The notes beneath the pieces are model-generated. The model did not search any database and was not told the origin of the DNA. It saw only the letters and a list, made by a program, of their open reading frames with translations. DNA of 63,775 nucleotides, counting the filler, from Kipferlia bialata (taxonomy: Eukaryota), in assembly GCA_003568945.1 (NCBI GenBank). It is 4 parts of 4 records of this genome, joined end to end, with 100 filler letters (N's around TTAATTAATTAA, not from the genome) between each part and the next. Parts side by side here need not be neighbours in the genome. Positions count along the whole stretch, not along the records: positions 1 to 24,054 come from BDIP01000241.1; positions 24,155 to 48,135 come from BDIP01000242.1; positions 48,236 to 57,112 come from BDIP01000283.1; positions 57,213 to 63,775 come from BDIP01000291.1. The stretch is one strand, 5' to 3'. The position numbers and the translations under genes are program-made. Positions within the stretch are counted from its first letter, which is position 1. Each line of letters begins with the position of its first letter. Below, piece by piece: positions 2,968-62,140 of this stretch.

Positions 2968-3415
2968 GTGAGACATATGTGTATGCGTGTGTATATACTT
3001 GTATACAGTGTCACACAGCTGCATGTTTTGACTACTGTATTGCATATATATGAGTTACATGTGTGTGTGCAACTCTCATGATTGTGGTGGAGTGGACTTC
3101 GTGTCTGCTCCTCTACTCTTGTGGGATTCACTCATATATAGTGATTCATTGTGTGTGTGCAAGTGGCATGCAGTATTGTGTTGTGTATCATTGTATATGT
3201 TTGGTGACCACATATACTGCGATGCAAGATAATAGAGAGAGATATATTAGTGTCTATTTGTGGTATGTGATATAAGCGGCACTATTACAGTCTCCCTCAC
3301 AATATGTTGGGGGATGTAGTTGTTAGAATAGTACACAGTTCCCGAACCAGAGGATTTCCACTCACTTCTCTATTTGAGTATTGGGATATAGAGAGACTGT
3401 GTCCCGTAAGCATGT

Positions 3416-4791
3416 TCACTCCAGGGGAAGGATCCTGCCGAACCAGAGGAAGTCGTGGGAGTTCTTCTGAAGGATAAGAAGTGCAACTATTCATACATAA
3501 ACAACAATGCATACCATATATATATATATAAATACACTAGTATACCTCGTAGACCTCTGTGATTCCGTACTCCTCCTCGGGCACTCCCTCGGCACACAGC
3601 CTGTCCTTGCTGGGGTGAGAAGAGGGGGGGAGGGGGGGAGGGGGGGGGGCATAGAGGAAAACAGATAGAGTGAGTGAGAGCAATGTATATATATCTCAAA
3701 TTACTCGGGTCATTGGGAAAGAACTGGAATAGTATATAGAGTAGGAATACCACTCCCGTACCCCTCCTTGACCATCTCCTCCTCCATGGGCACAATGTAA
3801 TCACAGCTCTTGGGGTACACCTGGGGTGGGACTGAGTAAGGACTGATCAAATATGAATGTACATATCAATACACTGTGTCATCTCTCTCTGGGTACACCT
3901 GGGGTGGGACAAGGGCTAGTTAAAATACATATATACAGACTTGTACTAGACACTTACCCTCATGATGTTGACGATTATGCTCAGCATGGTGCGGCAAGGC
4001 ATGTGCACTCCAATCTTGGTGCCACCCTGCAGGATACCAGCCTCAAGGCCTACTTATTAGGGGTGACAATATCGTAGTATAGTACATATAACAATCATAT
4101 ATTGTATATAATATAGTACCACCCTGCCGGATACCAGCCTCAAGAACTTAGCAAGAGGAATAGAGGAAAAATAGAATGTATATAGTGAATGCACTATATG
4201 TATCCATACCCTCCACTCCGTCCAGGGCCTTGGCCTCAGCCTCTGTCACCACATTGCCAACTAGCCAGCGGAGGTCCTCCTGGGGTAAGGGCATATACAT
4301 ATATATTGCAGCACGTATTAAATACTGTGAATGGCTGTCAAATACACCACGTGAAGGTATCCTTCTTACGTGTGTCATGGATGTATAAAGTAGTGAGTGA
4401 GTTGACAGTGCAAATCCAACAGCGGGACTCGATTATACAAATTGAGGGGGGGGGGGGGGGGGGGCAGACACAGAGAGATAGGGGAAGAGAGAGACATACC
4501 TTGGGCACGGTCTTGGGGTCACTGTAGTAGAGTCCGAAGCCGACATCACTGGGATCAGGGGACATAAATATGGAAACAATATCATCATTGGCAATGAGGA
4601 GATGCACAACCGGTCAGAGCGACAGAGCATCATGAGAATTATCCCAGTGTATATATGTATATATGTATATATGTATATATGTATATATGTGTATATGTGT
4701 ATATTATAGCAAGAGATCAGTGTCACAATATATCAGGCACTCACCAGTTGACATTGTGCTTCTTGAGGATGGCCTCAACCTCCATGCAGAC
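3416..4791 (-). CDS. TEX264-like GyrI-domain protein (5' partial, about 7 exons)
   Basis: Spliced: VCMEVEAILKKHNVNCDVGFGLYYSDPKTVPK|EDLRWLVGNVV...|..MLSIIVNIMR|VYPK...|..GITEVYE|KNSHDFLWFGRILPLE*. Resembles the TEX264 motifs YYDxPxxVP..R..VG, LSI....RVYP and EIY. Confidence 0.65.
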
Positions 4792-5047
4792 CTGGAATAA
4801 GGAACATGTACTAATATATGTATATATATATAGAGAGAGAGAGAGAATATCGAGGATGGCCTCAACCTCCATGCAGACCTGCAGTAAGGTATATGTACGT
4901 ATGCATATATGTATATATAGAGAGAGAGAGAGAGAATCAAGGACGGCATCGGCATCCATGCAGACTTTGGACTGAGATGTGAATATATATACAATAGAGA
5001 GAGGGGAGGAGGGATGAGACAGCATGTCCCAAGGAATGAGCGGGAAT

Positions 5048-5081
<34 letters not shown>

Positions 5082-5419
5082 TATGAAAAGGATGAGAACA
5101 TGACAGAGAGATCCCTAGGGGAGAATATACAGCACAGAGAGTACATGAGGACTTCTGGATGGAGACTACGGTGGTAAGGAGCGAATGACATGCCATATTT
5201 ACATATTCATTATTATATTTATATATTCATATGGCTACACAGGGTATGTGTGTAGCACGACATTGAGTAGTAGTGGCAGATCCCGTATATATGAGGCATA
5301 TCAAAAAATATATACCACCCATAGGGTGAAAGAGTGCAAACCAGGAGTCAGATTTGGTCTACACACACATGGTAAATACATCATATAACAGTGCTCATAC
5401 TCACACCACATCTACCCAC

Positions 5420-5798
5420 CTGCTCCGATTGAGCTGTCTGCGTATATGGGCTTGAGGGTGCAGTCTACCCCAACCCTGACAGAGAGAGAGACCACCACGT
5501 TGTTCATGAGACAGGCAATGACTGGGGACCCCTCCCTGTCGTACTTGGCCATCACAGCAGCAAGGGTCTTGGCCTTGTGCACGTCGAGCTGGTCGTCCTC
5601 GTCCACCCCGTACATACTGGCAGTCACAGAGGTGCGGTCCATGGGGGTCTTGGGCCGGCTCTCCCTCCCAGAGGCACTGCTGCCGGTGCTCGAGGTCAGC
5701 AGGGAAAGACCGTCGATCCCGGTCTGGCCGTTGTCGACGCTCAGGCGCCGGGGGGCGAGGTGCGAGGCCTCCAAAAGCGCATTCAACTGGTTCGGCAT
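5420..5798 (-). CDS. First exon of a hypothetical gene; continuation cannot be traced past the poly-G at 5048
   Basis: GC-rich ORF MPNQLNALLEASHL... ending at a donor CAG|GTGGGT. Confidence 0.5.
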
Positions 5799-6142: not shown

Positions 6143-9100
6143 TCAGTATCCTCTCACGTTTGCTAACAGGCTGCCAACCCTGAGAAGTCTGGCAAAGGGA
6201 GCCTGCTGGCCATCCTGAAGTCAGTATATGTAAATATATATATACACACATAAATATATAACACACATATATATACAATAATGAAGCCTAACACGTCATC
6301 TTAGACCCTGATATTGACCCTGATACTGTTAGGCCATCCTGTAATATAGGAAAGAGACCAACATATGACATTTTGTTCATGAGAGAGAGAGAGGGGAAGA
6401 AGGGAATCCAACCTGTGCCACCAGTAGGAGACTCTGCCCCTCAGAGGCGTCTGAGACGTTTGACGCGTGTGAGACGTCAACCACAGGCAACAGGTGGACG
6501 GTGTTACCAGAAGCATATCTGAAGTAAAAGAGGGATAAATTCATCATGTGCTCACACATATACACTCATCTATTGTGCATTAACATGCATTGCAATGCAC
6601 ATATCTTGTTGTGCAGTGTGGGCGATATATAGAGTGTGTAGATATATATATAAACATATGCACACATATGTCGTGAGTTGTCAGTAGTGTTTACTAAATT
6701 GTACATACGCATAACAAAATGTATATATTTATGTCAATACACCAGTTGTGCATCTTGAGGTGTGGGATGGGCACACATCCATATACATATATATATATAT
6801 GGGTGTATCTGTGTACATATATGCACATACCTGTTGTGCATCGTGAGGTGTGGGATGGGCACACATCCATATATATATATACATATATATATATGTGTGT
6901 GTGTATGTATATATATATACCCATACCTGTTGTGCATGCTCAGGTGTGGGATGGGCACCGATACTGCCAGTTCCCATCCATCATGGCCTGAGGGGTCAGT
7001 ATCAGTATCAGTATAGTATACTATATGGAATGTAAATATTACAGTATCCGTTACGGATATGTCGTATCAGTTTCATTACCGTCTCTTTCATAAATTGTGT
7101 ATCTGGTCCCTCGTACTACTACAGCACCTACTCTTACAGTCTCGCTACTATCCTATCAGTATGTTTACCTATGGTGTCCAAGCAGTACACTGAGAGGTGG
7201 GCAGAGTCGGAGTCTCTACCGGCTAGGAAGAAGTACCTTCAGTTAGACAGGGTGGGGGAGAGGGGGAGTGACAGGTGGTTTTACACAAATGTACGCAATA
7301 TGTATCTCTACACAAATACCCATTCCTCTCCCCATTGCTGCCTGCTTATAATCTCACTGATGAAATATATAGTATACATACACACACACACACATATACA
7401 TACATGTATGTCTATACACGTACCTCCCCACCGCTGCCACTCCGTAGTGTCTGATGTCCTCAGGGGGTACCTCAGGGGCGGTGTACTCACCTAGACGTCA
7501 GTATATAGTATATATATATGCAGATAATAGTATACATGTGTATAGAGTATTGTTATGTGGTACGGTCAGCATATGTTCCCTATCTAACTATACTAGTAAA
7601 TCCAAATGGTTCAATATACATTGCCGATCTCATGCAATTATGTATGAAATACCTGTCTCCGTGTGGTGTGTCTTATGGAACAGTGTCAGACACTACCTTT
7701 GTATACATTCATACTGTATATATGTTCTTATAGTATACATGAATTGTGTTACCTATCTCCATGTGGTATGCACATATGTATCATAGAACAGTCACATAAT
7801 TGTCTTCGTTGTCAATATGACAAAAACATACAATGTATAGTATATATATGTGAGTATATGGTGTTACCTATCTCCATGTGATGTGCACATATGCTATGGT
7901 TCCTGCCGATGAAGACATGGGAGACGTCGGGGCTGGAGGGGTCAGAGGAAACAGGGAACACAACGACATGTATATACTTATGTATATACTCACATACATG
8001 AATGGGTCTCTGACACTCCTTGTCACAGGACCATTATGTATGTACAAGTATGCATATATATTTATACATATTGGTGTATGTATGTATGTTTATACATACA
8101 TACCTGTAGGGGTCTGTGACACTCCTAGATCCAGACCATTAGGTGTATATCCATACCATGGTACTGTATGACACAATGTATATACTTACCTGTATGGATC
8201 ATTGACACTCCTAGTCCCAGGGCCCCCATAGCTGTTACCCTGGTCACAGCAATCCTTGTGCACAGGGGACATGCAGTACCAGGAGAGCTGAGAGTCAGTG
8301 TTGTATACAATGCGGAAGGAGTATATATAGTATATAGTATATAGTATATGTTGAGTATATATCAGATGGGCCTTGTGCACAGGGGACATGCAGTACCAGG
8401 AGAGCTGAGAGTCAGGAATCTTACACGTCTAGATTATACACATCACATACACAAATATAAGAATATGATTGTATATAGTACATATGTTGGAGTATATATC
8501 AGATGGGCCTTGAGGGGACATACAGTACCAGTAACAATGTGTATTTATACATCGAGTGCATATATACCTTGTCCCCCCCTGGCACCGTGTCCAGTGCCCA
8601 TATGGCATTGCTCTTGTATATATACAAATGTCATATACACTTATACACATCAACCAACTGTATATACATACCTGGTCAACCCTTCCTGGCACCGTGTCAA
8701 GTGCCCATATGGCATTGGTCTTCAGAGTGTCCACAGCCACACAGGCCACACACCCATGGGAGGTGAAGGCGGCTGTGATCAGAGAAGAAGGTATACATAC
8801 ATGAAAATGGCATGATATATATCACTATTCACACAGGGCAGCTCTCATGAGAAGTGAAGGCAGCTGGGGGAAGGAAGAGACTATCATATATATGTATATA
8901 TAGGTATGTATATATATATATTTACATTACTTTGCTATATCAATCATATTGACACAGATCTTACATCTATGGGATGTAAAGGCGGCTATAAGGTCAGATA
9001 CATAAATGTATGTGTGTATATGAATATATATATGGTTATGGCATGATATATCTCGATGTGCAGGCTCACATAGTGTGTTGCGTATCAACACTATAGATGA

Positions 9101-10154
9101 CACAGATATATACATATATATATGTGTGGGTGTACATATATGTTCATAGTACGATAATAATGTCTCATGCACACTCACATAGCACGCTGTTGACGGTCGG
9201 TGTGTACACAGGTGTGACCTCTGTCCACTCATAGGTGGAGAGGTCAAGGACAAGGGTACAGAGGGGGGTGGGGACAGTGTTATAGCTAGGGTGAGATATA
9301 CGCCAAGTATAGAAGAGAGAGAGAGAGAGAGAAAGACGAAGAACGGGGCTTAGTGGAGTAGGGACAGTGGTGTAACTTGGGTCAGGTAGAGACTCTAGAG
9401 CTAGGAGAGAGAGAGAAAGGGAGATAGAGCGATTTGTAAAGATGGGGTAAGCGGCAAACTTGGAGTCGGAGAAGCCACAAGCACGGAAACACCTCCAAAT
9501 AGGGAATATTCTTATAGAAGACCAAATAAATACTAATATACAATTGAACTACTCACTCGTTGCGTCTTGGCCCCGCACAGAGGAAGTACACACTCCCACC
9601 CTGCACAACCATCTTAGAGGCAGCGAGAACCCTGAGCACAGTGTTGACAGCAGTGACGTCCCCTGAGTTAGATAGAACGCAGACCCGTATATTGATATGT
9701 ATATACATTCATATGTAATAGAGGCAACTAGGATACTGAGCACAGTGTTGACATCAGTGGCAGACCCTGACATGAGACAACGGTATATATAGAATCTATT
9801 ATCAATATATACATGTATATGTGTGGGTGTCTTTGTATAATTAGGCAGCCTCTGTGCAAGTCAAAAATCAAAAGAATATCACATATGAAGAGAATCGGTC
9901 TCTAAACAGAACTAGAAGACACTAATCTCTATATAAACTAATATATACAAGATATATATATATGGTAAGGTATATAGGTAACGTAAATACTGATACTCAT
10001 ACACATGTGTATCTATCTATATATATATACATGTGTTCCCACCAGTAGGAGTTCTCAAATGTATAAATAAATTTATATATGTGTCTATCCTATACCCATA
10101 CCTATACGACTCTGAGTTAGTATATGCACACATATGTATATGTATAATTCTTGC

Positions 10155-10188
<34 letters not shown>

Positions 10189-10289
10189 TTATACTCATAC
10201 ATATGCACCGAGGCAGGGGCAGGGGGCAGTTGTGTATACAAACATATATATCTATATATATTACGAATACTCTGATACCTATGGCAATA

Positions 10290-10320
<31 letters not shown>

Positions 10321-13300
10321 CTGATATTTATATATATACTGATACCTATGGACTTAGGCAGGGGCAGGGGGCTGAAGGACAGCTTGGTGATACCACTGGG
10401 GGTGCTAGAGGTACTAGTGGCACAGAGAGTAGTGATGCCGAAGGAGTGTGAGACAGTCTGACCTAAGGTTATACATGAGAATGTATGATTTACAATTACA
10501 TATACATATATATATTGAGAGAGAGAGAGAGAAAAAATATAGTGGGAGGCAGTCTGACATTAGGGTGAGGATAACATGGGTATATATACATATATACACT
10601 ACTATAGTATTAATGTCATACTATATAGATACTATGACTTACTCATGTATATACATAATGCCATAAGTAATGTCATATGTATATATATGTATACCTGCTC
10701 TTGGATCTTGGCACTCTAATCTAATATGTATTACTATATGAGAATATTCATAATATGTATATTGTCATTAATATGTATATATATATACATACCTGCGCTT
10801 GGGTCTTGGTACCTAATTTAATATGAATTACTAGATTTCAATATATATGAGAATATTCAAAATATGTATATTGTCATTAATACATATATATATAGATACA
10901 AACCTGTCCTTGGTAGTCTACCTCTTCACATATAGATACATACCTGCGCTTGGGTCTTGGTACCCAACGACAAGGGACAGGTACTGGGGGTGAGAGACGC
11001 AATACAATATGTAGAATAATAAATGAATGTCAATATATACTCAGTGTAACAATAATAACAATGGTATTACTAATGAAGATGACAGTTATTGGGGGTGAGA
11101 CGCAGTAGTACCAAATGTGTATGTAATATAGTGTGATACATATGAATTATACCAAGGTGCTTTAAGCTTTAATATATATAGTACAGTATTAATATGTATG
11201 TATAGTATATGTGTCGTATATATACCCGGTTGTTGCCTATTGGCACCATCTGTTCCCACACCCTGGGCAGCCTCTTGCCATCCTCAACTGGGGGTTAGAC
11301 ATACATATTGTAACCATGTATATACTGAATACATATACATATGTTGTATATATATGCAATACCTAGGGGCATGTCCACACTGGCCACTAGGGATTCTATT
11401 ACACATTATACATTATGCATATGATATATATATATATATACTACTATAGCTAGGGGTACATATATACTATTATTGCATACCTAGAGGTATGTCCACACTG
11501 GCCACAAGGGCTGACCCCGGAGACATGGCATCTGGGGTAAGGATTTATATGAATATATATATATATATATAGACTACACAGGAAATATATTAGTGTGTAG
11601 ACAAATGCATACATGTATATATATATATGACTCGCGAGACATGGCATATTATATATTATATAATTATACATTTATATAATTATACATATATATATATATA
11701 TATACATATATAACTATATTATTATATATATACTAAAAATTAAATAAAATATACATGACTCGGGAGACATGGCGACTGAGGCTTAGGGAACATAGTACAT
11801 GTAGATATATATGAACATATGAATAGTACATTTTATACTATGCATCTACCCACCCTCACCTTCGGCTGTCTGGAACCTCTTGGCAGGCAGTGGCAGTGGT
11901 TCATCTTCGACACCTGGGATAGAGAAAGGGGGAAGGCCACGCGGTACAGCAACTGTTGGTGAGACATCAAATATATATATATGAATATATACATCATATA
12001 CATCTAAACATGTGGTTCTTTCTATTCATATATATGGTGTAATATATATGAAACTGCATATACGTATACACGGCCACGCGGTACAACCACTATTGGTCAG
12101 ACAAGTATACTTTGTAGCCACAATATACACATAATCATCATCAAAAAGAGTATGCGATCAAACTGTAGTACTATTGGTATAGTAAAGGCAAACAAGTGGT
12201 TCACTGTATTCCACTATACGGTATGTGTATAAATACGGCATATCTATATATACTACCTATGTATATACGCTTTTCATATATAGATAGCATATAAATACAC
12301 TGCACATCAATCATTACGACACCAGTGTTATACAACCATCATATTACTCACCCAGTCTAGGCCCGTGTGCCTCTTCAGACGAAGACTCTGAACTATCCTC
12401 CTCTCCCTCTTCCTCTCCCTCTTCCTCTCCCTCTTCCTCTTCCTCTCCCTCTCCCTCTTCCTCGGACGCATCATCGTCATCCTCGTAGTATGATTGTGAG
12501 AATTCCATACTATCCTGGGGGTGAGATGTATATATTATATTGAGGTTGTATTTCAAAGAATATCTATAAATACATAGATGTATAGCTCTATATTCACGCT
12601 CCTCACTATCCTCCACATCCGAGTCAGTCTCATCGCTGTCTACGGGAGCTGCCCAGACCATAGAGGACAGCTTGAAAGATATGCATTCCCTGAGGTTACG
12701 CACTGTATGAATATAGTTATATATATATAATGTCCAGTCCATAGAGGACAGCTTGGAAGATATGCATTCCCTGAGGTTACGCACTGTATGAATATAGTTA
12801 TATATATATACATGTCCAGTCCATAGAGGACAGCTTGGTGCATACACTCTCTCTGAGAGTATTAGCTATGATGGAGTATATCTATATGAGTAGTACACAT
12901 AAATCCATGTACATATCTAGAAGGCGCTGGCACAGCTTGAAGCATACACAGTCCCTTGGGTAGGGAGCGTAAATATAGATATGTATATATATAGAGAGAG
13001 GGAGAGATAGTTACAGATTGGAGCATACACACTCTCTGAGTCTGTTAGCTATCTTAAAGTGTGTATATGTGTATATATGTGTATGTGTGTGTGTGCATGG
13101 AAGGCGGAGACATGCAGTCATGTATAGAACTATACATATCTATACATACTCACATATATATATATAGTATTATAGTGTATATACAGTATATTTCACCTCA
13201 TGACTGTAGGTGTGTCTGCATACATATATAGATATATATATATATATATACCTGATGACTGTCGGTGTGTCTGCATGTAAGGCTGAGACACGCACTGTCT

Positions 13301-15672
13301 TGTCACACACACTCTTCTTCACACCACTAGTCCTCAAGAACCCTATCAGCTGGGCCATGCCCTGGCCCTGGGTGTCAAGAATACTATATATATGAAATAA
13401 TAGATATATATATATATTAATATGTATATATATTAGTATATATATAATATTGCGTGTCCCTATCAGCCTGGCCATCGCCTGGCCCTGGGTATCAGTGACA
13501 ATCATTTCTGTGGTACAGGTACTCTTTCACACACACACACATGTCTATATATATATAGTGTATGTACATAAATTCTTGAGCCTGTCCCTAACAGTCGGGC
13601 CATGGCCCTGGGTGTCAGTACTTCATATATTCACATTTCTATATGTATTAATATATATTCAGCATTCATGGTATTAATTATTTTCCTTTCAGTATATCGA
13701 CAAAACTGACATATGATTAACATATGATTTGCCCATAGTGTGCCCTGGACGTCAATACTATAAATAGCAATATGTACATATTTACCATACCTTCACCTCG
13801 GCGCCCTCACCCTCCACCAGAGGTGTACACAGGTATCTATATTTATGTATATATATACATACCTAGTAAATACACACCTAGTATATCCACCAACCATGTA
13901 AACAATGTGTATACTACCATACCTTCACCTCAGTGCCCTCTCCCTCAACCAGAGATACTTCAGACAGGTCCGCAGAGACGGTGCTTCCATACGCACAACA
14001 ACCTACAGCTATGGTACAGTCTGTGTCAGGACTGCACACGGCTAGGACACACTCGCCCCAGAGGCTATGGAAGGGTGGGTACTGCACTGCCATTCTGCAC
14101 ATGACACTCAGCATGCCTCCTAGAGTAAGAACCAAGATAACAAAACATAACAACACACACATATATATATATATATGAGGATAGAGAGAGAGAGAGAGTA
14201 GGATGTAGGTACTGCACTGCCATTCTGCACATGACACTCAGCATTTCACCTAAGGTAAGTGATATGTATATATACACATGTATATATGAATATATATATG
14301 GAGAGAGAGAGAGAATGATGTGGTTACTACACTGTCATTCTGCACATGACACTGAGCATGGCACCTGATATTAGTATATATAGTATACATATGCATATTT
14401 ATATATATACATATATACAGGAATATATGTATATATATATACTATATGGAGAGAGAGAGAGAATGATGTGGGACCGGCACTGCCTCTCTGAACCGTGACA
14501 CCTAGCACACAATGCTCTGCCTAGATATATATCCATACACCTAGATATATATACTAGTGATAATAGATGTATCACATCTATGCATATATACATACACATT
14601 CATATATGTTCATACCTAGTGTATCTGCCAGATACACTAGATACTACTTGGCACTGTCTCTGCAAACCCCTCCAATACAAGTACCAAATGCATGTATAAA
14701 TACATATACATGATTAGTACCTAAGGAAGAGGGGACGCTCTCTGCATACCCCTCCAGGGTATGCACCACGTGCATGGGAGGTGCCACCAGGGACAGGTCT
14801 GAGGACACAACAACACCTGACAATATGAAACATTACATAGACAGTATATATAGTACATATGTTACATAGATAGTAGGACACAGCCACATCTGAGTCATTG
14901 AGACATTAGATAAGTAGTATAGTATATATTACATACATCTATACCTGACAGATAGTGCACCCAGGGCCGGCACTCACGCACCCTTTGTAGCTGAGCCTCT
15001 CTCTCTCTGCCAGTCTCTGTCTCTTCATTGGCGCCGGACTCGCGTAGTAGCACAGCCGCCTCAGCAGCTCTAGATCCACCTGTAATGGCTATATCAGCCA
15101 CCTGCGAGTAGAGGCTCCCTCTCCCCTCCTTCTCCCTCTCTCTCTCTCTCTCACTCACCCACTCGGATAGTATTGCCTGTATACGCTTGTTGTGTAGACC
15201 CTTCATGGCCATACCAACAGTCATACAGGATACAGGGTCAGACGGATCCACATGAGACAGGATAGACCTTTGGTTAGTGTCAATCTTTACACACATAGAA
15301 CTAGATCCGTATCACACATATGCATACATACAAATATATATGAATATTAATATATATATGTGTGTGTGTGTATACCTGATGTACTTCTCCCTCTGCCCCT
15401 CCACACTGACTGTGTCCTCCTCCTCAGACACCCCTAGCTGGTACAGCGTGTTGTACACGATCCATGCCACATCGGTCCTCAGCATGTCACACATCTGTGG
15501 CAGATATGCACCCATCGACGCCACAGTGCAGTCGTCCAGACCGATTGACACCATCTCTCCACAGTCTAGAGGGTTAGCATGGTAATGGTAAATTAATATA
15601 GTCTAGAGAGTTAGAAGAACAATATAATATATATCAACTCCTGTGATCATGAATGCCGTGTTGATTTCCGTC

Positions 15673-15710
<38 letters not shown>

Positions 15711-16512
15711 ATATTACATGTATATATATACCTGTGATCATGAGTGCCGTGTTCATGTCCATCATACACACAGACCCTGTCTTATACTCTGATACACCAT
15801 GCTCACTGGGGTTCTGGCCATCACAGCATGTCCAGCCCTCGGCGGGGAATCTGGTGTTAGGTATATATTTATATATATATAATATCTATATAATATATAT
15901 ATATATATAATATAATATGTATATACAAATGGTATGTATATAAATACATATAGATACAGGGGTTCTGGCCATAGTACATAGCATGTCCATCCATGAGACG
16001 GGGGTCTAGGGTTAGATGGTATATATATATGTGTGTGTGTGTGTATAAGTATACATGGGTTACTAATATATATGAATATATAGGGGTTCTGGCCATCATA
16101 GCCTGTCCAGCCGTCGGAGTGACTTGAATCAGTATATATATATACATACAAATACATATAATTATACGTAAACATTCTCTATATACCCACCTCGTGTCGA
16201 ACTATACCATGTTGCCGCATGTGACTGCCATATATATGCCTATATACCACATATATTCATCCATATATATATAGATATACAAGAATTATTGATTCCCCCT
16301 ATATGTATTCTTGTATTCATGTCAAACTATGCTACATACAAACATATATTTGAATATATGTGTTGATGATATCCAATGCATATATACATATACATATATA
16401 TACCTCGTGTCGAACTGTACCATGCTGCTGTGTGTCACTACCATGAGGCATGGACCCACACAGAACACAGGGGGGCGGCAGCTCTGATGTGGGAGTATCT
16501 GTATAGAGAGAC

Positions 16513-16543
<31 letters not shown>

Positions 16544-19500
16544 ATAATGAATATATATATATCAATATATTAATGAATATATATATATATATTGACACAG
16601 AACGCAGGGGGGCGGCAGCTCTATCTAGTAAGTACGTAAGAGAGGAAGGCAGTAAGAAGTGAGTATACAATATGTATATATCCCCCACAGAACACAGGAG
16701 GGCGGCAACTCTATTGTGTTAGAGTATAAAAAACGCTATAGACAGAATATGGAATAGTATATATGCACAATACCTATAATAACACGCGTATTTAAACAAT
16801 ATTAGAATACAAGAAACAATTGTCACAATTAATCACAATAAATCCCTTGGTTGGCATGTCTAGTATATATATTACTATAGAGCATAGAATATCTATTATA
16901 GAGCATAGAATATCTATTTTACCTTGAAGTACATCCTGTGCCCCTATACACTTAAATGATACTGAATTACCACAAATTGAATGATTCCCAAAATCTGATA
17001 TATACCTTTATATGTACATCTGGCATCCTGTGCCACTGTCAATAGAATCAATCATCAAATGATCAATCATCATATGATCAATCCTACCTTGATTGGTACA
17101 TCTGGCATCCTGTGCCACTGTCCGTCAGGTGTGAGTGTCATGTGCATACAGCCAGACAGGCCACCCAGGACATGCAGGGTGTCTGGGGTTTAGATAAACT
17201 ATGTTGGATCTATACAAATTTATCCATATATAGATATAAATATACACATGCATACCGTGTGTGACTGTGGATGCCAGTCTCAGTGGCACAATTTCAGCAA
17301 TATATATATATATAAATATGTATTCTCTATGTATATATGAATATATATATACTATACATACATATCCATANNNNNNNNNNNNNNNNNNNNNNNNNNNNNN
17401 NNNNNNNNNNNNNNNNNNNNNNNNNNNNNNNNNNNNNNNNNNNNNNNNNNNNNNNNNNNNNNNNNNNNNNNNNNNNNNNNNNNNNNNNNNNNNNNNNNNN
17501 NNNNNNNNNNNNNNNNNNNNNNNNNNNNNNNNNNNNNNNNNNNNNNNNNNNNNNNNNNNNNNNNNNNNNNNNNNNNNNNNNNNNNNNNNNNNNNNNNNNN
17601 NNNNNNNNNNNNNNNNNNNNNNNNNNNNNNNNNNNNNNNNNNNNNNNNNNNNNNNNNNNNNNNNNNNNNNNNNNNNNNNNNNNNNNNNNNNNNNNNNNNN
17701 NNNNNNNNNNNNNNNNNNNNNNNNNNNNNNNNNNNNNNNNNNNNNNNNNNNNNNNNNNNNNNNNNNNNNNNNNNNNNNNNNNNNNNNNNNNNNNNNNNNN
17801 NNNNNNNNNNNNNNNNNNNNNNNNNNNNNNNNNNNNNNNNNNNNNNNNNNNNNNNNNNNNNNNNNNNNNNNNNNNNNNNNNNNNNNNNNNNNNNNNNNNN
17901 NNNNNNNNNNNNNNNNNNNNNNNNNNNNNNNNNNNNNNNNNNNNNNNNNNNNNNNNNNNNNNNNNNNNNNNNNNNNNNNNNNNNNNNNNNNNNNNNNNNN
18001 NNNNNNNNNNNNNNNNNNNNNNNNNNNNNNNNNNNNNNNNNNNNNNNNNNNNNNNNNNNNNNNNNNNNNNNNNNNNNNNNNNNNNNNNNNNNNNNNNNNN
18101 NNNNNNNNNNNNNNNNNNNNNNNNNNNNNNNNNNNNNNNNNNNNNNNNNNNNNNNNNNNNNNNNNNNNNNNNNNNNNNNNNNNNNNNNNNNNNNNNNNNN
18201 NNNNNNNNNNNNNNNNNNNNNNNNNNNNNNNNNNNNNNNNNNNNNNNNNNNNNNNNNNNNNNNNNNNNNNNNNNNNNNNNNNNNNNNNNNNNNNNNNNNN
18301 NNNNNNNNNNNNNNNNNNNNNNNNNNNNNNNNNNNNNNNNNNNNAATATATATATACTATACATACATATCCATACCTCCATGTGTAACTGTGGATGCCA
18401 GTGTCATTGGCACAGGCACATCCATCAGTCTAGTCCACTGGCCACTCTTGGGTGTGTATACCCAGGAGTCAAAGAGAGGCCTTCCTGAACCCTTATCAGT
18501 AGGTACTGTCTCTCCCCCTATCACCAGCAACTTGTCACCGAAACACGCTAGAAGAGGCTTCACTCTGTCACAGGGCCACATCATCTGACCATCCTTGACC
18601 TCTGTTGACCCCTCTTGAGCAGAGTTGGGGAGCATCACACTACCCCACTGCTCGGTGTATATGTCCAGGGTGATGAGCTCAAAATGCTCTCTCCTGGTTA
18701 TGTCTGTGATAGGGCTCCCATCATAGTTAGTCTTGGGAGCACCCACGCAGTATAGGGTGTTGCCTACAATGGCAGAGGAGGGTAGGGACATGACCTCCTG
18801 GTGGGGGTGGTCGATGACACTGACCTAGGGTCAGTAATATGTATATATATGTATATATGTATATATGATACATAGTGCATAATAGTGTTTAGTAATGATA
18901 TGTATATTTGTATAAGAGTATATATATAGAAACACGTATAGTAACATATTACTAAATGTATAGTAATGTAAAACACATTGTATACAAGGATGTGTCCTGA
19001 CCTTGTATGGATCCTCCCCACCCTCCGCTGCAATGTCTGATATCCGGTACACAGCACCCTCCTGCTGTTGGACTGCCAGAAGCTCGACAGGCCCAGACTG
19101 GGGTGAGTGTGAATGGAGTAATTGAACATAATAGAACCATTGCGACATGCACTGTCACATATCAGTGTGAATAGAATTACATGCAAAACAAAGAAATGTA
19201 TGCAGATGGATACGGGTTGTGTGAACATAATAATTGCATTACACACTATGCTTGTGTATAGTGTGTCTAGAGTAGGTACAATAATATGCTATAATGATCG
19301 TGCATGATGAACATGAGCATATTCTTTCTGTATGTGAATACTTGTCAACATAGTGTATATGGTATATGCATGTATATACCACACACATGCCTGATGATGG
19401 GCGAAGGAGATGTCGGGACCGCTGACATAGTATCTGTGTATCATAGTATATGTAAATATATATATAGTAATATCATAATATATATATATCATAATTTATA

Positions 19501-21377: not shown

Positions 21378-21409
<32 letters not shown>

Positions 21410-22481: not shown

Positions 22482-22512
<31 letters not shown>

Positions 22513-22534
22513 ATAGATGGTGAGTGATGCACAC

Positions 22535-53280: not shown

Positions 53281-54388
53281 TCAGCCCTCCTTGTGAATGG
53301 TGTATCCTCTTCCCTCCAACACCCCGTTGATCTGCGCCAAGTTCTCCTCAGCACCTGTAGTATACCCCTCGCCGTCTCTCTCTGAGACTCTCTGGACACC
53401 AGCGTACACCTCTCCTTCGCCCTGTCTCTCCCACTCTCTGTGTAACAGAGCATTAATGACACCAAGTTGGTCTGCGAACTGAGCATACCCTTGTCCTTCT
53501 CCCTCTCTCTCTCTCTCCTCGTCTGCAGATGCACCCTGCTCGGACTCTGCACTCTCATCAATCTCACCCATCACAAGGTGGCCAATGAGCTTCCTTGGGT
53601 TACAAGACCAGTAAAGAGAAACAACAAAACAGGACAGGGACATAAGAACATACTAACGGACAACAACGCACTCCTAACTCAAGGTGACAGATCCACATTT
53701 GCAGTACATAGAAAACAGAGCTACGTACTCCTTGACCCTCTGCGACACATCGTCCATCCCAAACTGGACAACCTCACTCTGGATGACCTGGTCGTTAGTA
53801 TATGCATGTGTAGAACACTATACTGATATATATATGGGAAGTGAAAATACAAAGTGAGGGTCAAGAAATGTATTCAACTGGAGTGCTCTTTCTGTGAAAT
53901 TACTCGATGGCTTAGTACATGTAGACAATACCTCAAAGTGTCTGTCGAGCACTGGCACGATGTTCTCCTCCCACCAGGTCTGGGGGTAAGTATGAAGTAT
54001 GATACATTAATACTCAATGGTTCAATTGGTCACAATGACCATACCTGCTGGTCTCTCTGTGTATTGTATCAGTGTCAGTGTATATATACCTCTATGTTAA
54101 TGAGTGTATGTAAATATCGGTGTAACTAAAGAGAATGATGAATGATTAACCTGCTTGTCTCTGTGCTTGTCCAGGTACTCATCCATATCGGTACAGAGCT
54201 GCTCCATCTATAGGTGAGAAAGTGAAGGTGAGAGAGGGAGAGTGATAGTGTATGTGTAGCATATATAGGGCTTTGCAACCAAAGAGTGTATACCATACTC
54301 AATGCAATAGAGAGAATATGACACTTGACAACGGACAGTACACACACACACACACATACACATATATATATATATGCGTGTATGTATA

Positions 54389-54424
<36 letters not shown>

Positions 54425-54493
54425 TATATAGATATATGTATATATATCATGAACCTCGAAGTGTAGTATATATATAGAGAGAGTATTGTATAG

Positions 54494-54524
<31 letters not shown>

Positions 54525-56803
54525 TTGACCCAGCTTGCTGAGTAGGGGGATACCCACACCTGGAACAGAATCACAAATTCATATTCATATTCATACGTAT
54601 TACGCATGTGTACCTGTGTGATCCACCTGCTCAGAGTTCCGTTCACATCCACATAGCCCCATCCCCTGGGAGTAAGTGTTGAGTACAAAAGACATTCACA
54701 AATAAGAATTGACTATATATATTACATTGACTATGTATGCAGTATTTGGACTTACTGCAATATTTGGAAACTGCACCTGATGCTGTTTGTGTACCCCACA
54801 CTCCCGACCCATATCTGGTTGAGACTGGTTATGATGTCCCAGGCCAGTTCCACCCTGTCCCTATTGAACAGGTCCTTGGTGATGATGTGGCTGGAGTGAG
54901 ACTGGACGTGATGCATATTGGAATACATTGGTTATACATCATAGACTCCCGAACTTGAAGGCAAGAGACCTAACCTGAAAACTGCATAGTGTTAGCATCG
55001 ACTGCAATATATGACAGAGTGAAACTACTAAGCGAGTATAGTACCCACTATTCCCTCAGAAAGGTATTATATACACATTGCTATATATCTGCATTGCTTT
55101 GTATACTCACGTCTGAATCTGGTCGATCACAAGTTGTACACATCTGTCCAGGTGGTACTTGCTCTTGGTGTTGGACATCTTACGAATGGCGTCGATACCA
55201 GGGTATGCAAGCTGATGGTTAGTATGGCAGAGACCGAGAGGCCAAGAGCCCCAATCCCCTCCTGTAGTCAACCGATCCCTCTATACATGTGCTCTAAATG
55301 TACACATATACAATATCTGCTGAAGGTCACCTCTCTTTCTCTTCTATACACCCACTCCTTCCGCTCTCTAGCTTCCAGATTGTACATCACAATGTGTGAC
55401 CATACTCCTACATATGTAACTCTGTAATTTGTGTGCCAACAGTATCGCACACCTTCTGCAGCATAGCCACCAGCCTGTCCCTGTTGAACAGACAATACAT
55501 ACACACACACACACATATATATATATGTATATATATGTGTACTGTACAGTGACTGACCTTCTGCAGCCTAGCCACAAGCTTGTCCTTGTTGGGTAGAACC
55601 ATACTGGGGCCCCTCTTCTTGGGTACAAACCTGGGTCAGATGGAACAGTCTAAACACGACTGGGAATCATCGTATAGATAACACACAGTATACGTACTCT
55701 CCGTCCTCAGTCCATGTGCCCTTGGCCTGTTTGGGGGTGCCCTGGAGGTGGGTAGAGGCATACATATATTCACCTATATATACATTTATATATATTCAGG
55801 GAATACCTTCCCTGTTGCCCTGGAGGTGGGTACATGTATACTTATATACACCTATATATACATATATAGATATACAGGGTATACCTTCCCTGTTGCACTT
55901 TGGGGTGCCCTGGAGGTGGGTACATGTTCACATAATTTCACACACATGTATATACATGTAATACCTTCCCGGTTGCACTCTGTACCACCCTGAGCACCAG
56001 GTCGAACCTGCCATGAGTATACCTGCTTCATAATACACACTGATCAGAACTGATTCATCTGTGTTGGGAGTCTAAGCACCAGGTGCAAAGACAACGAACA
56101 GATATCAGCATCACCCTTCCAATATTACAATGCATCTAGTCACTTGATAGCTCATGTGACTCCACAGTATCATACCTGTTACCTGTCGAGCAGAGACCCT
56201 TGGACTGACGGTAAGAAATAGTCGATAGGATACATACTAGTACTCTCTAGCACACATTCTATCAGGCGAAGTATCTGTAATTTGACAAACACCAACCGTT
56301 TCTACATACTTTGATTACTACATCAGTATCTATGGCAGAGACTGATAGAAGACAGGATCTGAAAACATACACTGCTCTATCTACATATGACGCTTGTTAA
56401 TATGCCTTGAGTGTTGCCTTGATATCTGACACACATCTAGACATTATTAATATAATACATTGGTGTACGTATTGGTAGGCTACTTGTTTACGTAACAATC
56501 CTTGACATGCCTTGAGAGTTGCCTTGATATCTGCGACAGAGGGACCAGACTCATACTGAGGGAACCTAGATATTAAGGGCATATATATATATATAGAGAG
56601 AGAGAGAGGGTGATGAATGGATATACACCCTGAAGAACCAGAATCATACTGGGGGAACCTAGACGGTGACAGGTATCAGTTGCATAGACACGTATACATA
56701 TGCACGCATATATAGTATACACACACCTTCCCTCGTCCACCATCCTAGCCGTCATTGGCACTGTCCGTGCCTCATGGGCATAGGGGGAGGTGTGCTCACA
56801 GGC
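53281..56803 (-). CDS. Hypothetical multi-exon protein (5' partial)
   Basis: Chain of GT-AG exons, e.g. LAYPGIDAIRKMSN.., HIITKDLFNRDRVELAWDII.., TWWEENIVPVLDRHFE, and a terminal exon ending GYTIHKEG*. No family recognised. Confidence 0.55.
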
Positions 56804-57691: not shown

Positions 57692-60600
57692 CCAGCCCCT
57701 CAAGTACTGGGACTCCAAGTGTGGGGAGTACATCTGCCTCAAGTGCTACGGGGCAAAGGGGGACGAGGTGGATCTAAAGGTATACCTTCATCATACATAC
57801 TAGTGTTAGTGTATGCGAAGTCTCTCTAACTCTCTCTCTCTATCTCCTTTATCATACACTAGTGTATGCGAAGTCTCTCTCTATGTCTCTCTCTCTCTCT
57901 CCCTTCCCTCAGGACATCATCACTGTCAAGGATGACGCGTACCATGCCTCTGTGTGTGGCACCATAGCAGACAGAGTGAGGACGGGGGAGGAGGCAGGTA
58001 TATAATCATATGTGTAGTCATATATGGAGAGGGAGTGGTAGTTCATGACAGGGTCTTTGTGTATACATGGCTTATACATCCCCCTCACCCCAGATGCTGT
58101 GCTGGCTGCTGAGATCCACAGGCTGGAGAGGCTCAGGAGGAGGTATGTATAGACATAAATATCTGCGTCTAGTAGTGAATATGCTTATACAAAGGTATAG
58201 TCACCCACAGGCTGGAGAGGCTGAGGAGGAGGTAGACTAGTGTATACATTTATATATTAATAGTATTCATAATAGATCTGCATAGATATTTTGTATATAG
58301 CACTGTGTATACACAGGCTGGAGAGGCTCAGGAGGAAGTATACGCAATATAGTCTGTGCATATAGTAGTGTATATGCATGGTGGCTAGGTGGTATGACAG
58401 TGACAATGTTGCAGTCTATATGTGTGGCACTCTCTACAAATACTGATGCCTAGGTGGTATGACCGTGACAAGTCAGTGGAGAAGCACACGGCCAGTACAC
58501 CCGCTGATGCATTCCCAGCCATAGCAGAGGTAGGAGGATCACTCTCCTCTATATCATAATCCTGCAGAGGTAGGGGGTATCTCTCTCTTATATATCATAA
58601 CCCCAGCTCTGCAACGCTCATTCTGTCCTAGAGAGACCAGTGTACATTAGTGTTAGTATGTGGGCACTCACCTTCAGGTTCGCACTGCCCTCTCTGACCT
58701 TGACACTCTAGTGTGCGCCCTGTCCACAGCATGTGACACCAGGGGGGTGAGGGGGGTGGACATGCAGGTGGGTACATAAGTATGTTTATATGTTGGTATC
58801 AATGTCGATGTATATGTGTATGTGACACTAGGGGGGTCGACATGCAGGTGGGTATATATATGTGTATATATGTTGGTATCAATGGGTATACAAATGTGTA
58901 TGTGACACTAGGGGGGTCGACATGCAGGTGGGTATCTCTCTCTCTCCCTCTCTCTCTCTCTCTCTCCCTACCTCCAGGTCCAGACAGATGAGATTCGGGA
59001 GGAGGAGGAAGAGTCAGACCATGGTATGGGAGAGTTTGAATGGTCACATGTAGTAATATATACATATATGTACATATACTCAGAGGGGTGAAGACATCCG
59101 TGAGGAAGAGGAAGAGTCGGACCATGGTAGGGGAATGTGTATATGAAACTCTCTAGGCGGACCTGTGCATACTTAAAGAACACCGAAATGCACGCATACT
59201 TCCACTACATGTGGCCATAAGTCACATTTGGACTCACGCTTCAGACGACTCTATCCCCGAGGCCCTGTTTGACCCCCCTGAGGCAGGGGTGGTCATGTCA
59301 ACAGATATGAGGAGGTACATGTACTATATACCTCTAATCATAATACACCCACCCTTGATGTTGTTTCATCCTCAGGGGGGGTAATTATATATATTGACAG
59401 ACTGTACATATACTGTTATCTCACCTACAGGGGTGGTATTGATGGGGAACATCACGTCGTGCCCATAGCCAGGCAGCAGAGGGTAAGGCTTCCTTCTCTT
59501 CCTCTTTTGTTTCTTCATCAATCCCGAGATTATCTATCCCACATTAACAATGCATTATTATGTGATTGTGTATCTATGAATATATATGCACACTCTCACC
59601 CCAGATGCCAACTGACCACATCACACTGAATATATATCTATGTATGTATGTATACCTATGCATACTCTCACCCCAGATGCCCTCTGACCACATCCGACAG
59701 GCAGACTGGGTGCAGAAGCTCAAGTATAGGTGTGATAGAGTATATGCAGAGTATATATATATATACTCCAGAAGCTCAAGTACAGGTAAAGATGGGACTG
59801 AATACATAGTGTATACCCATGTATATATGTGTATATATACATATGTATAGTTGTGTTGGGACAGGCAGACTGGGTCCAGAAGCTCAAGTACAGGTTTGAG
59901 AGAGCTTAGTGTGTTGATATATTTGAATAGTGTCTTAATGCCGTTCAACAGTCCGATGACAATGAGGTATATCGAAAACACGTCCTCGCTAGCCCTCTCT
60001 GACTCCCCCAGGTGAGAAGGCATCGTGCACTCAACAGAAAGAGGAGACCACTTTTGATTTCGTATAATAGTATATTAGTATATTAGTATTATAGTACAAT
60101 AGTATATTATTAGCATAATTCACCTGTCAGGTGTGAGGGCATTGTGCACTCCCACCGGAAGAGGAGACCTGTGCCAGATGTGGACCCAGACACCCTCAAC
60201 AGAATGTGCACATACCTGTGGTGAGTACCGCAATGTACTATACATACTATATACTGAGTATTGAACACGTTTCACGATGTACTCTCAGCAGGACGTGCAA
60301 ATACCTGTGGTGAGTGATATATTCAGAGCAAAATTGTATGCCTAAGTGGTGAGTGGTGTGTATATAGTACTGAAGATGTACGGAGTCAATTGTCTGACGT
60401 TCCCAGGTACTATGGCGATGCTGCCGAGTGTAACACTGCACCTCCTATCAAGTTCCTCATTGAGGCAGTTGGGGTGTGGATGAAGAAAGGTACGTCACCA
60501 CATCTACACGATAGTGTCTAGTATGCATCTCTGTTTACGCCCAGAGTCCAACCGCCCCACCCTCATCTACGGTGGCCTCCTCCCCCCTCTGCTCTGTGCA

Positions 60601-62140
60601 CTATCTAGACAGAAGACACTGGCCCCACACACGTGCCTCAGGCTCTGTCAGTTTGTGGTGACGCTGGCAGGTATAGTCTATAGACTATAACCTATCGTAC
60701 CCACATATGTATCAGTTATGTACTATCATTGAACTATTCTCATCCTTTAGGTGAGGAGGAGGGCAAGAGTGAGCGGTGCGCCCTAGTAACTCTGGATGCA
60801 CTCAAACAGGCAGTGGGGAGGTACCATATGCAGTATTCTACATTATACTGTGTAGCATATACGCTGTGTGTATGATGGTGTCCTGAAAGGTCACACTAGG
60901 GGCACTCAAACAGGCAGTGGGGAGGTGGGATATATGGTGTAGATTACATTATGTGATGTATATAGTGAGCAAGAGTGTACTAGGAGCACTTCAACTGGGA
61001 CAGGAACGATAACCCAAAAATAAGCATTCCTCTGACCATGAGCCCAGTGTCATCTACAACAACAACAGCATATTCTAATATACATATGGGCATATTCAAT
61101 ATATAGTATGGACTTGCATATAGTATACATACATATAGTATCTAACCTGCAGTGTGAGGGCCAATGTCATCCACAACAACCACAACACGCACATCCACAG
61201 ATCCTATGAGAGGGCTCAGATACTCATGGGTATGGGAGACAGACTATACTCTCTATACATACTATATACAATGTAGAGTAAGTGTCATATATCTCTCATT
61301 ATAGCCTCATGCTCCTAGAGTCTTGTGTATACTCTACATGACAATACTCATGTATGTTGAAATACTAATTGACCCCCTCCCTAATGGACTAATAGATACT
61401 GTCTTACCTCAGCCCTCATGGGCCCCCTCCATGCTGAGGATGTGCCAGTGTACCAGACCCTGGCTGACCTGTGTGTGGAGCCTGCCACGGACGCAGTGTA
61501 TCACTTGGTCACAGACACTACCAACAAGCACCCACAGACAGAGGCCATAGGGGCAAGGTAGGGACACAATTACAGTGTACATATCCAAGGGTTGCTATTG
61601 GTAGAGTAGCTGTGCCTGTATATACTACTGGACTCCTCACCCTCTAGGTTGAGAGAGGGCATTGGTATCCTGATAGGAGCCGCAGACGATGGACACCAGA
61701 TAGCTGCCAGGCTGAGCGAGAAGCACAATCTAATGGAGGTATCTCTCTCTCCCTCTTACTCTCTCATGCTAGACCCCCATTCACATCAGCGTCTTCGGAA
61801 GATGGGTGCTGTTAATCCAGTCTATGAGAAGCTGCGGCAGAGGATTATAGAGGAAGGGAGAACGGGACATATGGAGCGGGAGAGAGAGCGAGAGCGAGAG
61901 AGAGAGAGAGAGATGGATAGAGGTCGAGGTCGGTCAAGACATGGTGATTGGGATAGACGTCCTGATTTTACGGAGAGGGAGAGGGAGAGGGAGAGAATTC
62001 CACAGGGAATGTACAGGGGTAGAGGGGGTGACCCCGATAGAGATGTGGGAGGGTGGAGGAGGGATCCAGGCTACAGTGACCGGAGAGATGACTACTATCG
62101 AAGCGACCATAGGGAGAATGATCGTCGAAGGGGTTGGTGA
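57692..62140 (+). CDS. B-box-like zinc finger, coiled-coil and helical region with an RD/RE/RG-rich tail (5' partial)
   Basis: QPLKYWDSKCGEYICLKC resembles the B-box LxxFCxxCxxxICxxC. About 16 exons; the last encodes RERERE..DRGRGRSRH..DRRRGW*. Confidence 0.55.

What the first reader, a model, noticed from the sequence alone, without database searches (positions are those of the whole stretch)
3400..61200. Introns pervasively filled with serial partial copies ('echoes') of the neighbouring exon junction
Seen: in nine multi-exon genes on all four scaffolds, long introns contain 1-4 copies of about 15-70 nt of the adjacent exon end, including its splice site, spaced by (TA)n/(TC)n/(CA)n tracts. 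Examples: 4853-4970, 6742-6870, 8370-8530, 14205-14370, 22635-22755, 22950-23095, 44510-44735, 46665-46810, 50990-51292, 55805-55900, 58207-58340, 58820-58930. Polarity is nearly invariant: [acceptor + exon start] copies lie upstream of the true exon, and [exon end + donor] copies lie downstream. Inference: introns grow by repeated tandem duplication across splice junctions. I do not recognise this as a described gene architecture.
Basis: partly seen in the sequence, partly recalled or inferred. Interest (0 to 1): 0.88.

Follow-up and report, generated by a model that had tools for sequence, protein, structure and literature searches.

The report
Introns packed with old allele fragments
In the free-living protist Kipferlia bialata, about half of the introns examined carry short copies of the neighbouring exon end with its splice site, and in several genes these copies differ from the working exon the way two working gene versions differ, so they are likely leftovers of other alleles stitched in by faulty recombination rather than simple self-duplications.

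Summary
Confirmed and real. The window is Kipferlia bialata. 69 of 144 modelled introns, in 9 of 11 genes, hold 125 copies of the adjacent exon end (control 0.13%), in ~100-nt units. A separately assembled DNA contig reproduces an array exactly, and a spliced contig from a probable RNA run skips the copies.

The new point: the copies do not look like dead self-duplicates. Differences from the working exon are mostly silent (pN/pS 0.33; BEACH gene 0.13), below the ~0.5 floor for a dead copy (simulated 0.53). Identity falls from 0.92 to about 0.5 right after the GT, yet echo splice sites score like true ones. This is the pattern of two working alleles.

Best reading (0.55): out-of-register repair or crossover between strongly diverged homologous chromosomes. 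The Kelch gene (0.59) still fits dead copies, and no second allele was seen.

The architecture resembles amphioxus 'mirages' and the human F7 intron-7 repeat. This scan noted such arrays earlier in animal genes, not in this genome. I found no paper describing this density or the allele signature.

The parts
35760..47981 (-). BEACH-WD40-FYVE gene (K. bialata KIPB_001651), 41 modelled exons; 21 of 40 introns carry 35 echo copies; echo-vs-exon pN/pS 0.13
6143..23914 (-). Kelch-repeat gene (5' end missing), 35 modelled exons; 22 of 34 introns carry 49 copies; pN/pS 0.59
   Evidence: model rests on open frame and splice signals only
57692..62140 (+). Gene of unknown family, 17 modelled exons; 7 of 16 introns carry 13 copies; three junctions confirmed by a spliced contig
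48451..52827 (+). ELMO-like gene (weak Pfam hit, E 0.027), 5 of 12 introns with 9 copies
53281..56803 (-). Gene of unknown family, 4 of 12 introns with echoes
3416..5798 (-). Gene of unknown family, 2 of 8 introns with 3 copies
24187..26400 (+). 3' part of a gene, 2 of 3 introns with echoes
26870..28681 (+). Small gene, 3 of 5 introns with 6 copies; the 27880/27974 acceptor copies have alignable flanks
32291..35044 (+). Predicted membrane-protein gene, 3 of 9 introns with 4 copies
58143..58453 (+). 311-nt intron with donor echoes at 58205-58231 and 58309-58336 and an acceptor echo at 58389-58406; spliced from the first donor to the last acceptor
47474..47894 (-). BEACH intron 1: three donor echoes (47767-47807, 47644-47684, 47540-47571), 7 silent and 3 replacement differences, each echo followed by a different intron start
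43152..43202 (-). 51-nt donor echo with 3 of 3 differences silent and an unrelated intron flank
42289..42320 (-). Acceptor echo whose first base differs silently in a codon split by the upstream intron (AG|A versus AG|G, both Arg), plus a silent Glu change
   Evidence: read directly from the sequence
36351..36640 (-). Last BEACH intron: three called donor echoes (71, 32, 22 nt) that share a Lys codon where the working exon has Arg
55807..55909 (-). Two chimeric pseudo-exons (acceptor + downstream-exon start joined to upstream-exon end + donor; 25 and 13 nt): whole-intron duplication type
   Evidence: read by eye; flags this intron
1..2967 (+). Contrast: helicase / RZ-finger gene with 4 short introns (median 74 nt) and no echoes

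Best explanation
About half of these introns contain ~100-nt units made of a copy of the adjacent exon end, its splice site and intron-like spacer, and most copies are likely the displaced exon ends of other, strongly diverged alleles, left behind when repair or crossing-over between homologous chromosomes joined out of register. Inferred steps: (1) alleles in this lineage differ at about 20-25% of silent sites and their introns barely align, so exons are the only long homology; (2) a break near an exon end is extended on the homologue, runs past the splice site into that allele's intron, fails to re-anneal and is end-joined, or an unequal crossover gives the same product; (3) the incoming exon end with 40-120 nt of its intron takes the working position, while the resident exon end and its whole intron stay behind as echo and core intron; (4) repeated events stack several echoes, and a sister or close allele as template gives a near-perfect tandem repeat; (5) selection keeps only units the spliceosome ignores (short echo, spacer above ~40 nt, no acceptor in front of a donor echo). 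Shown directly for three introns: the spliced contig uses the first donor and last acceptor.
For: Silent bias: 164 silent / 155 replacement differences, pN/pS 0.33; one echo per exon end (n=88) 0.33, p=8e-4 against 0.5; intron bootstrap 0.24-0.45. BEACH gene 70/22, 0.13, spread over 20 introns, and lost when the frame is shifted (13/79, 9/83). Forward simulation of a dead copy beside a drifting working exon gives 0.53 overall (lowest of 60 runs 0.41) and 0.56 for BEACH (lowest 0.38). In 31 exon ends with two copies, changes private to the near copy (15/14, 0.32) and to the far copy (21/24, 0.39) are both silent-biased, although the younger self-duplicate should be near 1. Five of 6 indels of 2 nt or more (4 of 5 distinct) are multiples of three. 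No GC-to-AT decay: 143 changes on 1854 GC sites, 102 reverse changes on 1305 AT sites. GT/GC kept in 63 of 66 and AG in 35 of 39 while identity falls from ~0.92 to 0.52 at +3..+8. Echo splice sites score like true ones (echo >= true in 22 of 39 acceptors, 32 of 66 donors). Core length equals echo-free intron length. No such repeats in 4.8 kb of intergenic DNA. Context from papers: fornicates lack Rad51A and Ku and keep Dmc1, and K. bialata has Spo11, Dmc1 and PolQ entries (PMC8516963); DMC1 tolerates mismatches (PMC7809202 abstract); in a hypervariable fungus crossovers favour exons (PMC4209137 abstract).
Against: No second allele was seen: the DNA run shows no variant over the 939 bases covered, no relative turned up in metagenomes, so the allelic diversity is inferred, not measured. 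The rejection of dead copies rests mainly on BEACH (0.13) and, weakly, on seven smaller genes (0.32, bootstrap 0.20-0.53); the Kelch gene (0.59) and all-but-BEACH (0.47, 0.34-0.65) fit dead copies. Echo-versus-echo 0.35 is only p=0.06 against 0.5, and near-private changes in BEACH alone are 4/6. A fixed synthesis-tract length is not supported: period rises with echo length (rho 0.30). Silent divergence is the same whether or not the flank aligns (0.19 vs 0.21) and flanks are more diverged than silent sites predict, so intron sequence must also turn over fast, which weakens the flank argument. Five stop codons and six 1-nt indels show real decay after insertion. Ten of the 11 gene models are not checked against a public protein, and only three junctions have RNA-type support.
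Confidence: 0.55

Rival explanations
1. Mirage-type self-duplication: local tandem duplications across a junction, after which the copy is dead, the working exon drifts at silent sites, and slippage scrambles the low-complexity intron part.
For: Explains polarity and ~100-nt period; about one copy in five has an alignable flank; whole-intron duplications at 55807-55909; Kelch gene 0.59 and all-but-BEACH 0.47 match its prediction; stops and 1-nt indels occur; known in amphioxus (PMC3087553).
Against: Cannot give less than about 0.5: BEACH 0.13 against a simulated lowest value of 0.38, overall 0.33 against 0.41. Near-private changes are silent-biased. Copies with alignable flanks also show 0.27 (22/16). 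With pN 0.066 the flank should be ~0.87 identical, but is 0.52 just after the GT.
Confidence: 0.22
2. Echoes are kept under protein-level selection where they sit, because they are sometimes used: as alternative exon ends in minor transcripts, or as cassettes that replace the working exon end by deletion or gene conversion.
For: Would give the silent bias, in-frame indels and strong splice sites without needing diverse alleles.
Against: The spliced contig has no cover on echoes in three introns (contigs hide minor forms). Only 2 of 66 donor echoes have a good acceptor in front. No enrichment of recursive AG|GT sites (46 of 55 vs 66 of 89; 8 of 33 vs 22 of 111). By my reasoning, conversion frequent enough to transmit selection would also erase the 20% silent divergence.
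Confidence: 0.1
3. Echoes come from diverged paralogues (duplicated genes that later fused or collapsed) rather than alleles.
For: Gives the same constraint signature; K. bialata has paralogue families (three F5/8 paralogues at 53-59%).
Against: One collapse leaves one scar, but BEACH has 35. The BEACH exon search returned only the gene itself (long proteins only, weak evidence). The genome could not be searched.
Confidence: 0.05
4. Staggered breaks filled in as target-site duplications, with newly synthesised AT-rich filler (polymerase theta type) as spacer.
For: Explains unrelated, low-complexity spacers; PolQ is listed for K. bialata.
Against: Copy and original start identical, so it has the same 0.5 floor; it gives no reason for homology to end at the splice dinucleotide.
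Confidence: 0.05
5. Assembly artefact: haplotypes stacked in tandem by the assembler.
For: The allele-like divergence is what stacked haplotypes would show; period (~102 nt) is close to a short-read length; run X1 may be the source of the assembly, so it is not independent data.
Against: A separately assembled 970-nt contig matches 57905-58843 with no difference and no unlike continuation, crossing three called echoes and the outer edge of a fourth; an exact repeat there has depth 1004 against 507. 0.97 of sampled 31-mers of 37200-47100 are in X1, where junction-spanning 31-mers make up 7.9%. Identity just outside echo edges is random (0.19-0.33), so no shared word exists on which a graph assembler could jump.
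Confidence: 0.03

Closest known systems
[quoted passage not shown]
   Same: Head-to-tail units spanning an exon-intron boundary, on either side of the exon, many keeping AG/GT, with normal splicing; mechanism stated as unclear.
   Different: Mirage units are described as 81-100% identical with concerted evolution, at a few loci. Here about half of all introns in 9 of 11 genes are affected, homology mostly stops at the splice dinucleotide, and differences are biased to silent sites.
Human F7 intron-7 37-bp VNTR (PMC1557585, abstract seen)
   Same: First unit spans the exon-intron boundary; downstream pseudo-donors are silent and the most upstream donor is used, as.
   Different: One locus, near-identical units, donor side only. 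Here acceptor copies must also be skipped in favour of the last one.
Intron gain by tandem duplication: Rogers model and the potato RdRp case (PMC4974935, passages seen)
   Same: Local duplication touching splice signals; the potato case duplicates an intron-exon boundary.
   Different: Those create a new intron and split the coding sequence. Here the copies lie inside existing introns and are spliced out; no gain was seen.
One-sided invasion / aborted synthesis-dependent repair finished by end joining (recalled; only a reference title seen in PMC4888836)
   Same: Gives a short duplication at the break with one part copied from a template.
   Different: Known from engineered breaks; not known to me as a genome-wide source of intron length, and not shown here.
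Exon-biased crossing-over in hypervariable Schizophyllum commune (PMC4209137, abstract seen)
   Same: Recombination between ~14% diverged genomes concentrates in exons, as the best explanation assumes.
   Different: The abstract reports clean crossovers, not junction duplications.

Membership tests
Mirages (amphioxus type) | Tandem units span an exon-intron boundary, on either side | tested here: met
   75 donor-side and 50 acceptor-side copies; 105 of 125 reach the junction
Mirages (amphioxus type) | Units keep splice signals yet splicing is normal | tested here: met
   GT/GC 63 of 66, AG 35 of 39; three introns spliced first donor to last acceptor
Mirages (amphioxus type) | Whole unit, intron part included, is a recognisable repeat (minisatellite-like, 81-100% identity) | tested here: not met
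   Only 21 of 105 or 18 of 105 have an alignable intron flank; identity 0.52 at +3..+8
Mirages (amphioxus type) | Copy number varies between haplotypes or cells | not testable with these tools
   One sample only, contigs not reads
Dead self-duplicates | pN/pS against the working exon of about 0.5 or more | tested here: not met
   0.33 overall and 0.13 in BEACH; met for the Kelch gene alone, 0.59
Rogers-type intron gain | Intron begins with a copy of the downstream exon and ends with a copy of the upstream exon | tested here: not met
   Donor copies precede acceptor copies in 13 of 13 introns, and a core of at least 51 nt always remains
Whole-exon duplication / mutually exclusive exons | Copies keep both exon ends or either end | tested here: not met
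   0 of 150 far exon ends are copied; 2 of 66 donor echoes have a good acceptor in front
Recursive splicing (ratchet points) | AG|GT sites enriched at the internal points | tested here: not met
   Fisher p 0.22 and 0.63; raw RNA reads not available
Introner elements | Families of similar introns spread across genes | not tested
   No all-against-all intron comparison run; K. bialata is scored 0 for introners in a supplement row of PMC9860276
Inter-homologue repair scars (proposed) | Echo plus core intron exists as a working allele in another haplotype | not testable with these tools
   No second isolate found

The most novel reading that the evidence does not exclude
K. bialata introns are an archive of its population's alleles: imprecise, mismatch-tolerant recombination between hyper-diverged chromosomes keeps parking displaced exon ends and their introns inside genes. 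That would make roughly a third of intron DNA and, if this window is typical, on the order of 100,000 fragments genome-wide, so that one genome records silent-site diversity near 0.2, gene-by-gene constraint and cryptic sex in a fornicate.
Probability: 0.5. Interest if true: 0.87.

Novelty: new variant of a known kind. Interest (0 to 1): 0.74.

Why it matters
It offers a route to intron growth that needs no transposons and may come from recombination between alleles. It would allow diversity and selection to be read from a single genome, and bears on the open question of sex and recombination in Giardia's free-living relatives, which lack Rad51A and Ku. It supplies a large natural set of strong but ignored splice sites on both sides of exons, in an organism reported to have a reduced spliceosome (87 of 174 proteins, no snRNA candidates found; PMC6679479), making splice-site choice directly testable. 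It also qualifies the published view that K. bialata's gene structure simply reflects the ancestral state (PMC5874029): intron lengths at least look actively remodelled.

Tried and rejected
No whole genome is held, so all counts come from this window. No run on record as RNA was listed; X2 is a guess, although its contig skips GT..AG introns. Read evidence covers one 1-kb stretch only; the BEACH gene has no read-level test, only the word share. Kelch exon search for longer homologues found nothing. Metagenome scan with a BEACH-gene exon found no relative (113 pattern hits, none confirmed). An automatic gene finder took echoes as micro-exons, so models were curated by hand for open frame and splice signals; the frame of one gene was corrected, changing counts from 162/157 to 164/155. 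mRNA- or cDNA-templated origin rejected: echoes continue into GT or are preceded by AG rather than by the next exon. Recursive splicing, whole-exon relics and Rogers-type gain rejected (membership table). Fixed synthesis-tract length not supported. Age order by distance is suggestive only: identity 0.92 near vs 0.91 far, p=0.32; pN 0.054 vs 0.085. Breakpoint microhomology could not be assessed without the source alleles. The intergenic blank is weak, as such DNA may be functional or decay faster. Two leading bases at each alignment end were dropped from codon counts; indels needed 9 aligned bases on both sides; introns with N gaps were left out of length and period statistics.


Full report
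Setting. The window joins four scaffolds with N-spacers and has three internal N gaps. Two single-exon queries hit Kipferlia bialata proteins at 100% identity (KIPB_001648; KIPB_001651), so the DNA is from this free-living fornicate. Its genome paper reports 124,912 GT-AG introns; the stems 'duplicat' and 'repetit' do not occur in its main text (PMC5874029; 12 of 16 passages seen, supplements not read). No whole genome was available.

Gene models. I curated 11 genes with 144 introns for open reading frame and splice signals. The 41-exon BEACH-WD40-FYVE model equals the public protein at 1455 of 1455 aligned residues (domains). The others rest on frame and signals; two have an apparent frameshift within an exon.

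Is it there, and more than chance? Yes. At score >=24, 69 of 144 introns contain a copy of the adjoining 40 nt of exon, against 0.13% of 11,520 control alignments, 1 of 288 reverse complements, 9 of 6172 non-adjacent same-gene ends and 0 of 150 far ends. There are 125 copies (75 donor side, 50 acceptor side) in 9 of 11 genes, 15-71 nt long, with a period of median 102 nt (IQR 89-116, n=101) and spacers of median 70 nt. All 12 example intervals overlap called copies. Short introns have none and long ones nearly all do. Echo units make up 10,564 of 32,113 gap-free intron bases, and the remaining cores match echo-free introns in length (122 vs 116 nt). A diagonal scan of the whole window found 168 local repeats: 104 exon-echo, 21 echo-echo, 33 intron-intron (by eye mostly flanks or weak echoes of the same units), 2 exon-exon, 8 other, and none in 4.8 kb of intergenic DNA.

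Is it an artefact? Unlikely. Two coded runs of one sample hold the region searched: X1 (DNA guess, 0.97 of sampled words) and X2 (RNA guess, 0.28). On 57905-58920, one X1 contig matches 57905-58843 without a difference or an unlike continuation, across three called echoes and the outer edge of a fourth; an exact repeat has twice the depth (1004 vs 507). One X2 contig skips three GT..AG introns of 96, 311 and 148 nt, using the first donor and last acceptor, with no cover on echoes. X1 may be the assembly's own source, so this is a second assembly, not second data, and only this 1-kb stretch was laid.

What the copies look like. Identity to the working exon is about 0.92, GT/GC is kept in 63 of 66 and AG in 35 of 39 junction-reaching copies, but identity drops to 0.52 at donor +3..+8 and 0.63 at acceptor -3..-8, with unrelated introns giving roughly 0.3-0.5. 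Only about one flank in five aligns (21 or 18 of 105 in two samplings). Echo splice sites differ in sequence from the true ones yet score as well. Inside the exon part, differences are 164 silent and 155 replacement, pN/pS 0.33 (bootstrap over 69 introns 0.24-0.45). Randomly mutated copies give 0.97 through the same pipeline; a dead copy beside a working exon that drifts only at silent sites gives 0.53, lowest 0.41 of 60 runs. The value varies by gene: BEACH 0.13 (70/22; third positions 67 of 331, first 14 of 326, second 11 of 329), seven smaller genes together 0.32, the Kelch gene 0.59. In 31 exon ends with two copies, changes private to the near copy, to the far copy and to the working exon are all silent-biased (0.32, 0.39, 0.23). 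Five of six longer indels keep the frame, and there is no drift toward AT. What is conserved between echo and original is thus what selection conserves in a working gene. Against this: all-but-BEACH is 0.47, echo-versus-echo is not clearly below 0.5 (p=0.06), and five stops and six 1-nt indels show decay after insertion.

How it most likely works (inferred). A head-to-tail geometry with two copies that each evolved as working sequence points to a join between homologous chromosomes carrying diverged alleles, made out of register. A break near an exon end is extended on the homologue through the splice site into its unalignable intron, cannot re-anneal and is end-joined; or an unequal crossover does the same. 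The incoming end takes the working position and the resident end with its whole intron stays as echo and core. This accounts for polarity, for homology ending at the splice dinucleotide, for strong echo splice sites, for normal core length and for the silent bias. A sister or close allele as template gives the near-perfect repeats. Fornicates are reported to lack Rad51A and Ku while keeping Dmc1 (PMC8516963, section 8 read), and K. bialata has Spo11, Dmc1, Msh2, XPF and PolQ entries (supplement rows; one supplement file unreadable). DMC1 tolerates mismatches (PMC7809202, abstract), and crossovers favour exons in a hypervariable fungus (PMC4209137, abstract). These give plausibility, not proof. 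The one-sided-invasion step is recalled; I saw only a reference title. No second allele was observed. A fixed tract length is not supported. Intron flanks are more diverged than silent sites predict, so intron sequence must also turn over quickly. How the spliceosome ignores echo sites is unknown; my guess is definition by composition (exons 58% GC, introns 39%) with a size floor, which would explain short echoes and the ~40-nt minimum spacer.

Comparison with what is known. The closest described structures are amphioxus mirages (PMC3087553, six passages seen) and the F7 intron-7 repeat (PMC1557585, abstract). The arrays look and splice like mirages, but fail the whole-unit-repeat feature for most copies, so I do not file them as members. 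Rogers-type intron gain (PMC4974935, passages) has the opposite layout. Ten literature searches (listings and abstract starts only, open-access library) showed no description of these arrays in Kipferlia, of this density, or of an allele signature; subscription papers and unread supplements could hold one. Earlier notes of this scan report junction copies in sea-urchin, annelid and other invertebrate genes, one of them attributing a silent bias (43 of 107) to protection of the working exon alone; none concerns this genome. I had tested that floor and simulated it: it fits the Kelch gene, not BEACH or the pooled set. The mirage lead came from those notes and was checked.

Verdict. Observation confirmed; interpretation partly supported. 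A new variant of a known kind, with a mechanism that may be new. Scaling 125 copies per 144 introns to the published intron count gives about 100,000 copies, a rough figure from one window. Best explanation 0.55; interest 0.74.

Noticed in passing
window 56510 (-), 19653 (-), 29630 (-): The three non-GT donors in the models are all GC-AG introns starting with the same hexamer GCATGT; echoes of two of them keep the GC.
   Followed up: partly
all 144 modelled introns: Very strong proto-splice context: last exon base G in 134 of 144, exon ends AG in 112 of 144, first base G in 86; phases nearly even (46/45/53). This may indicate lineage-specific intron gain rather than ancestral introns.
   Followed up: no
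acceptors, whole window: A branch-like YTVAY motif lies 2-8 nt before the AG in 107 of 144 acceptors, recalling (from memory) the fused branch-acceptor of Giardia introns.
   Followed up: partly
window 17371-18344 and 30018-31003: The 31 and 35 bases before these N gaps recur just after them, so the gaps probably mark unresolved repeats and their stated sizes may be wrong.
   Followed up: partly
window ~1030-1040 (+) and ~33380 (+): Apparent single-base frameshifts within exons: in the helicase/RZ-finger gene and at a G run in the membrane-protein gene; assembly error or inactivated gene.
   Followed up: no
window 1-2967: The helicase/RZ-finger gene has only short, microsatellite-poor introns and long exons, unlike its neighbours, and no echoes.
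   Followed up: partly
window 29870-31090 (-): In-frame 42-nt coding tandem repeat in the F5/8 type C gene KIPB_001648, interrupted by an N gap.
   Followed up: no
window 63416-63775 (-): Intron-free pentapeptide-repeat reading frame running off the window end (Pfam PF00805, E 2.5e-16).
   Followed up: partly
window 22446-22560 (-) and 36800-36870 (-): Duplications of an acceptor region with almost no exon sequence (periods about 75 and 42 nt), below the echo threshold.
   Followed up: no
window 12617 (-): The Kelch model needs a weak GTGGAG donor here, followed by sequence faintly like the next exon's start; this junction is uncertain.
   Followed up: no
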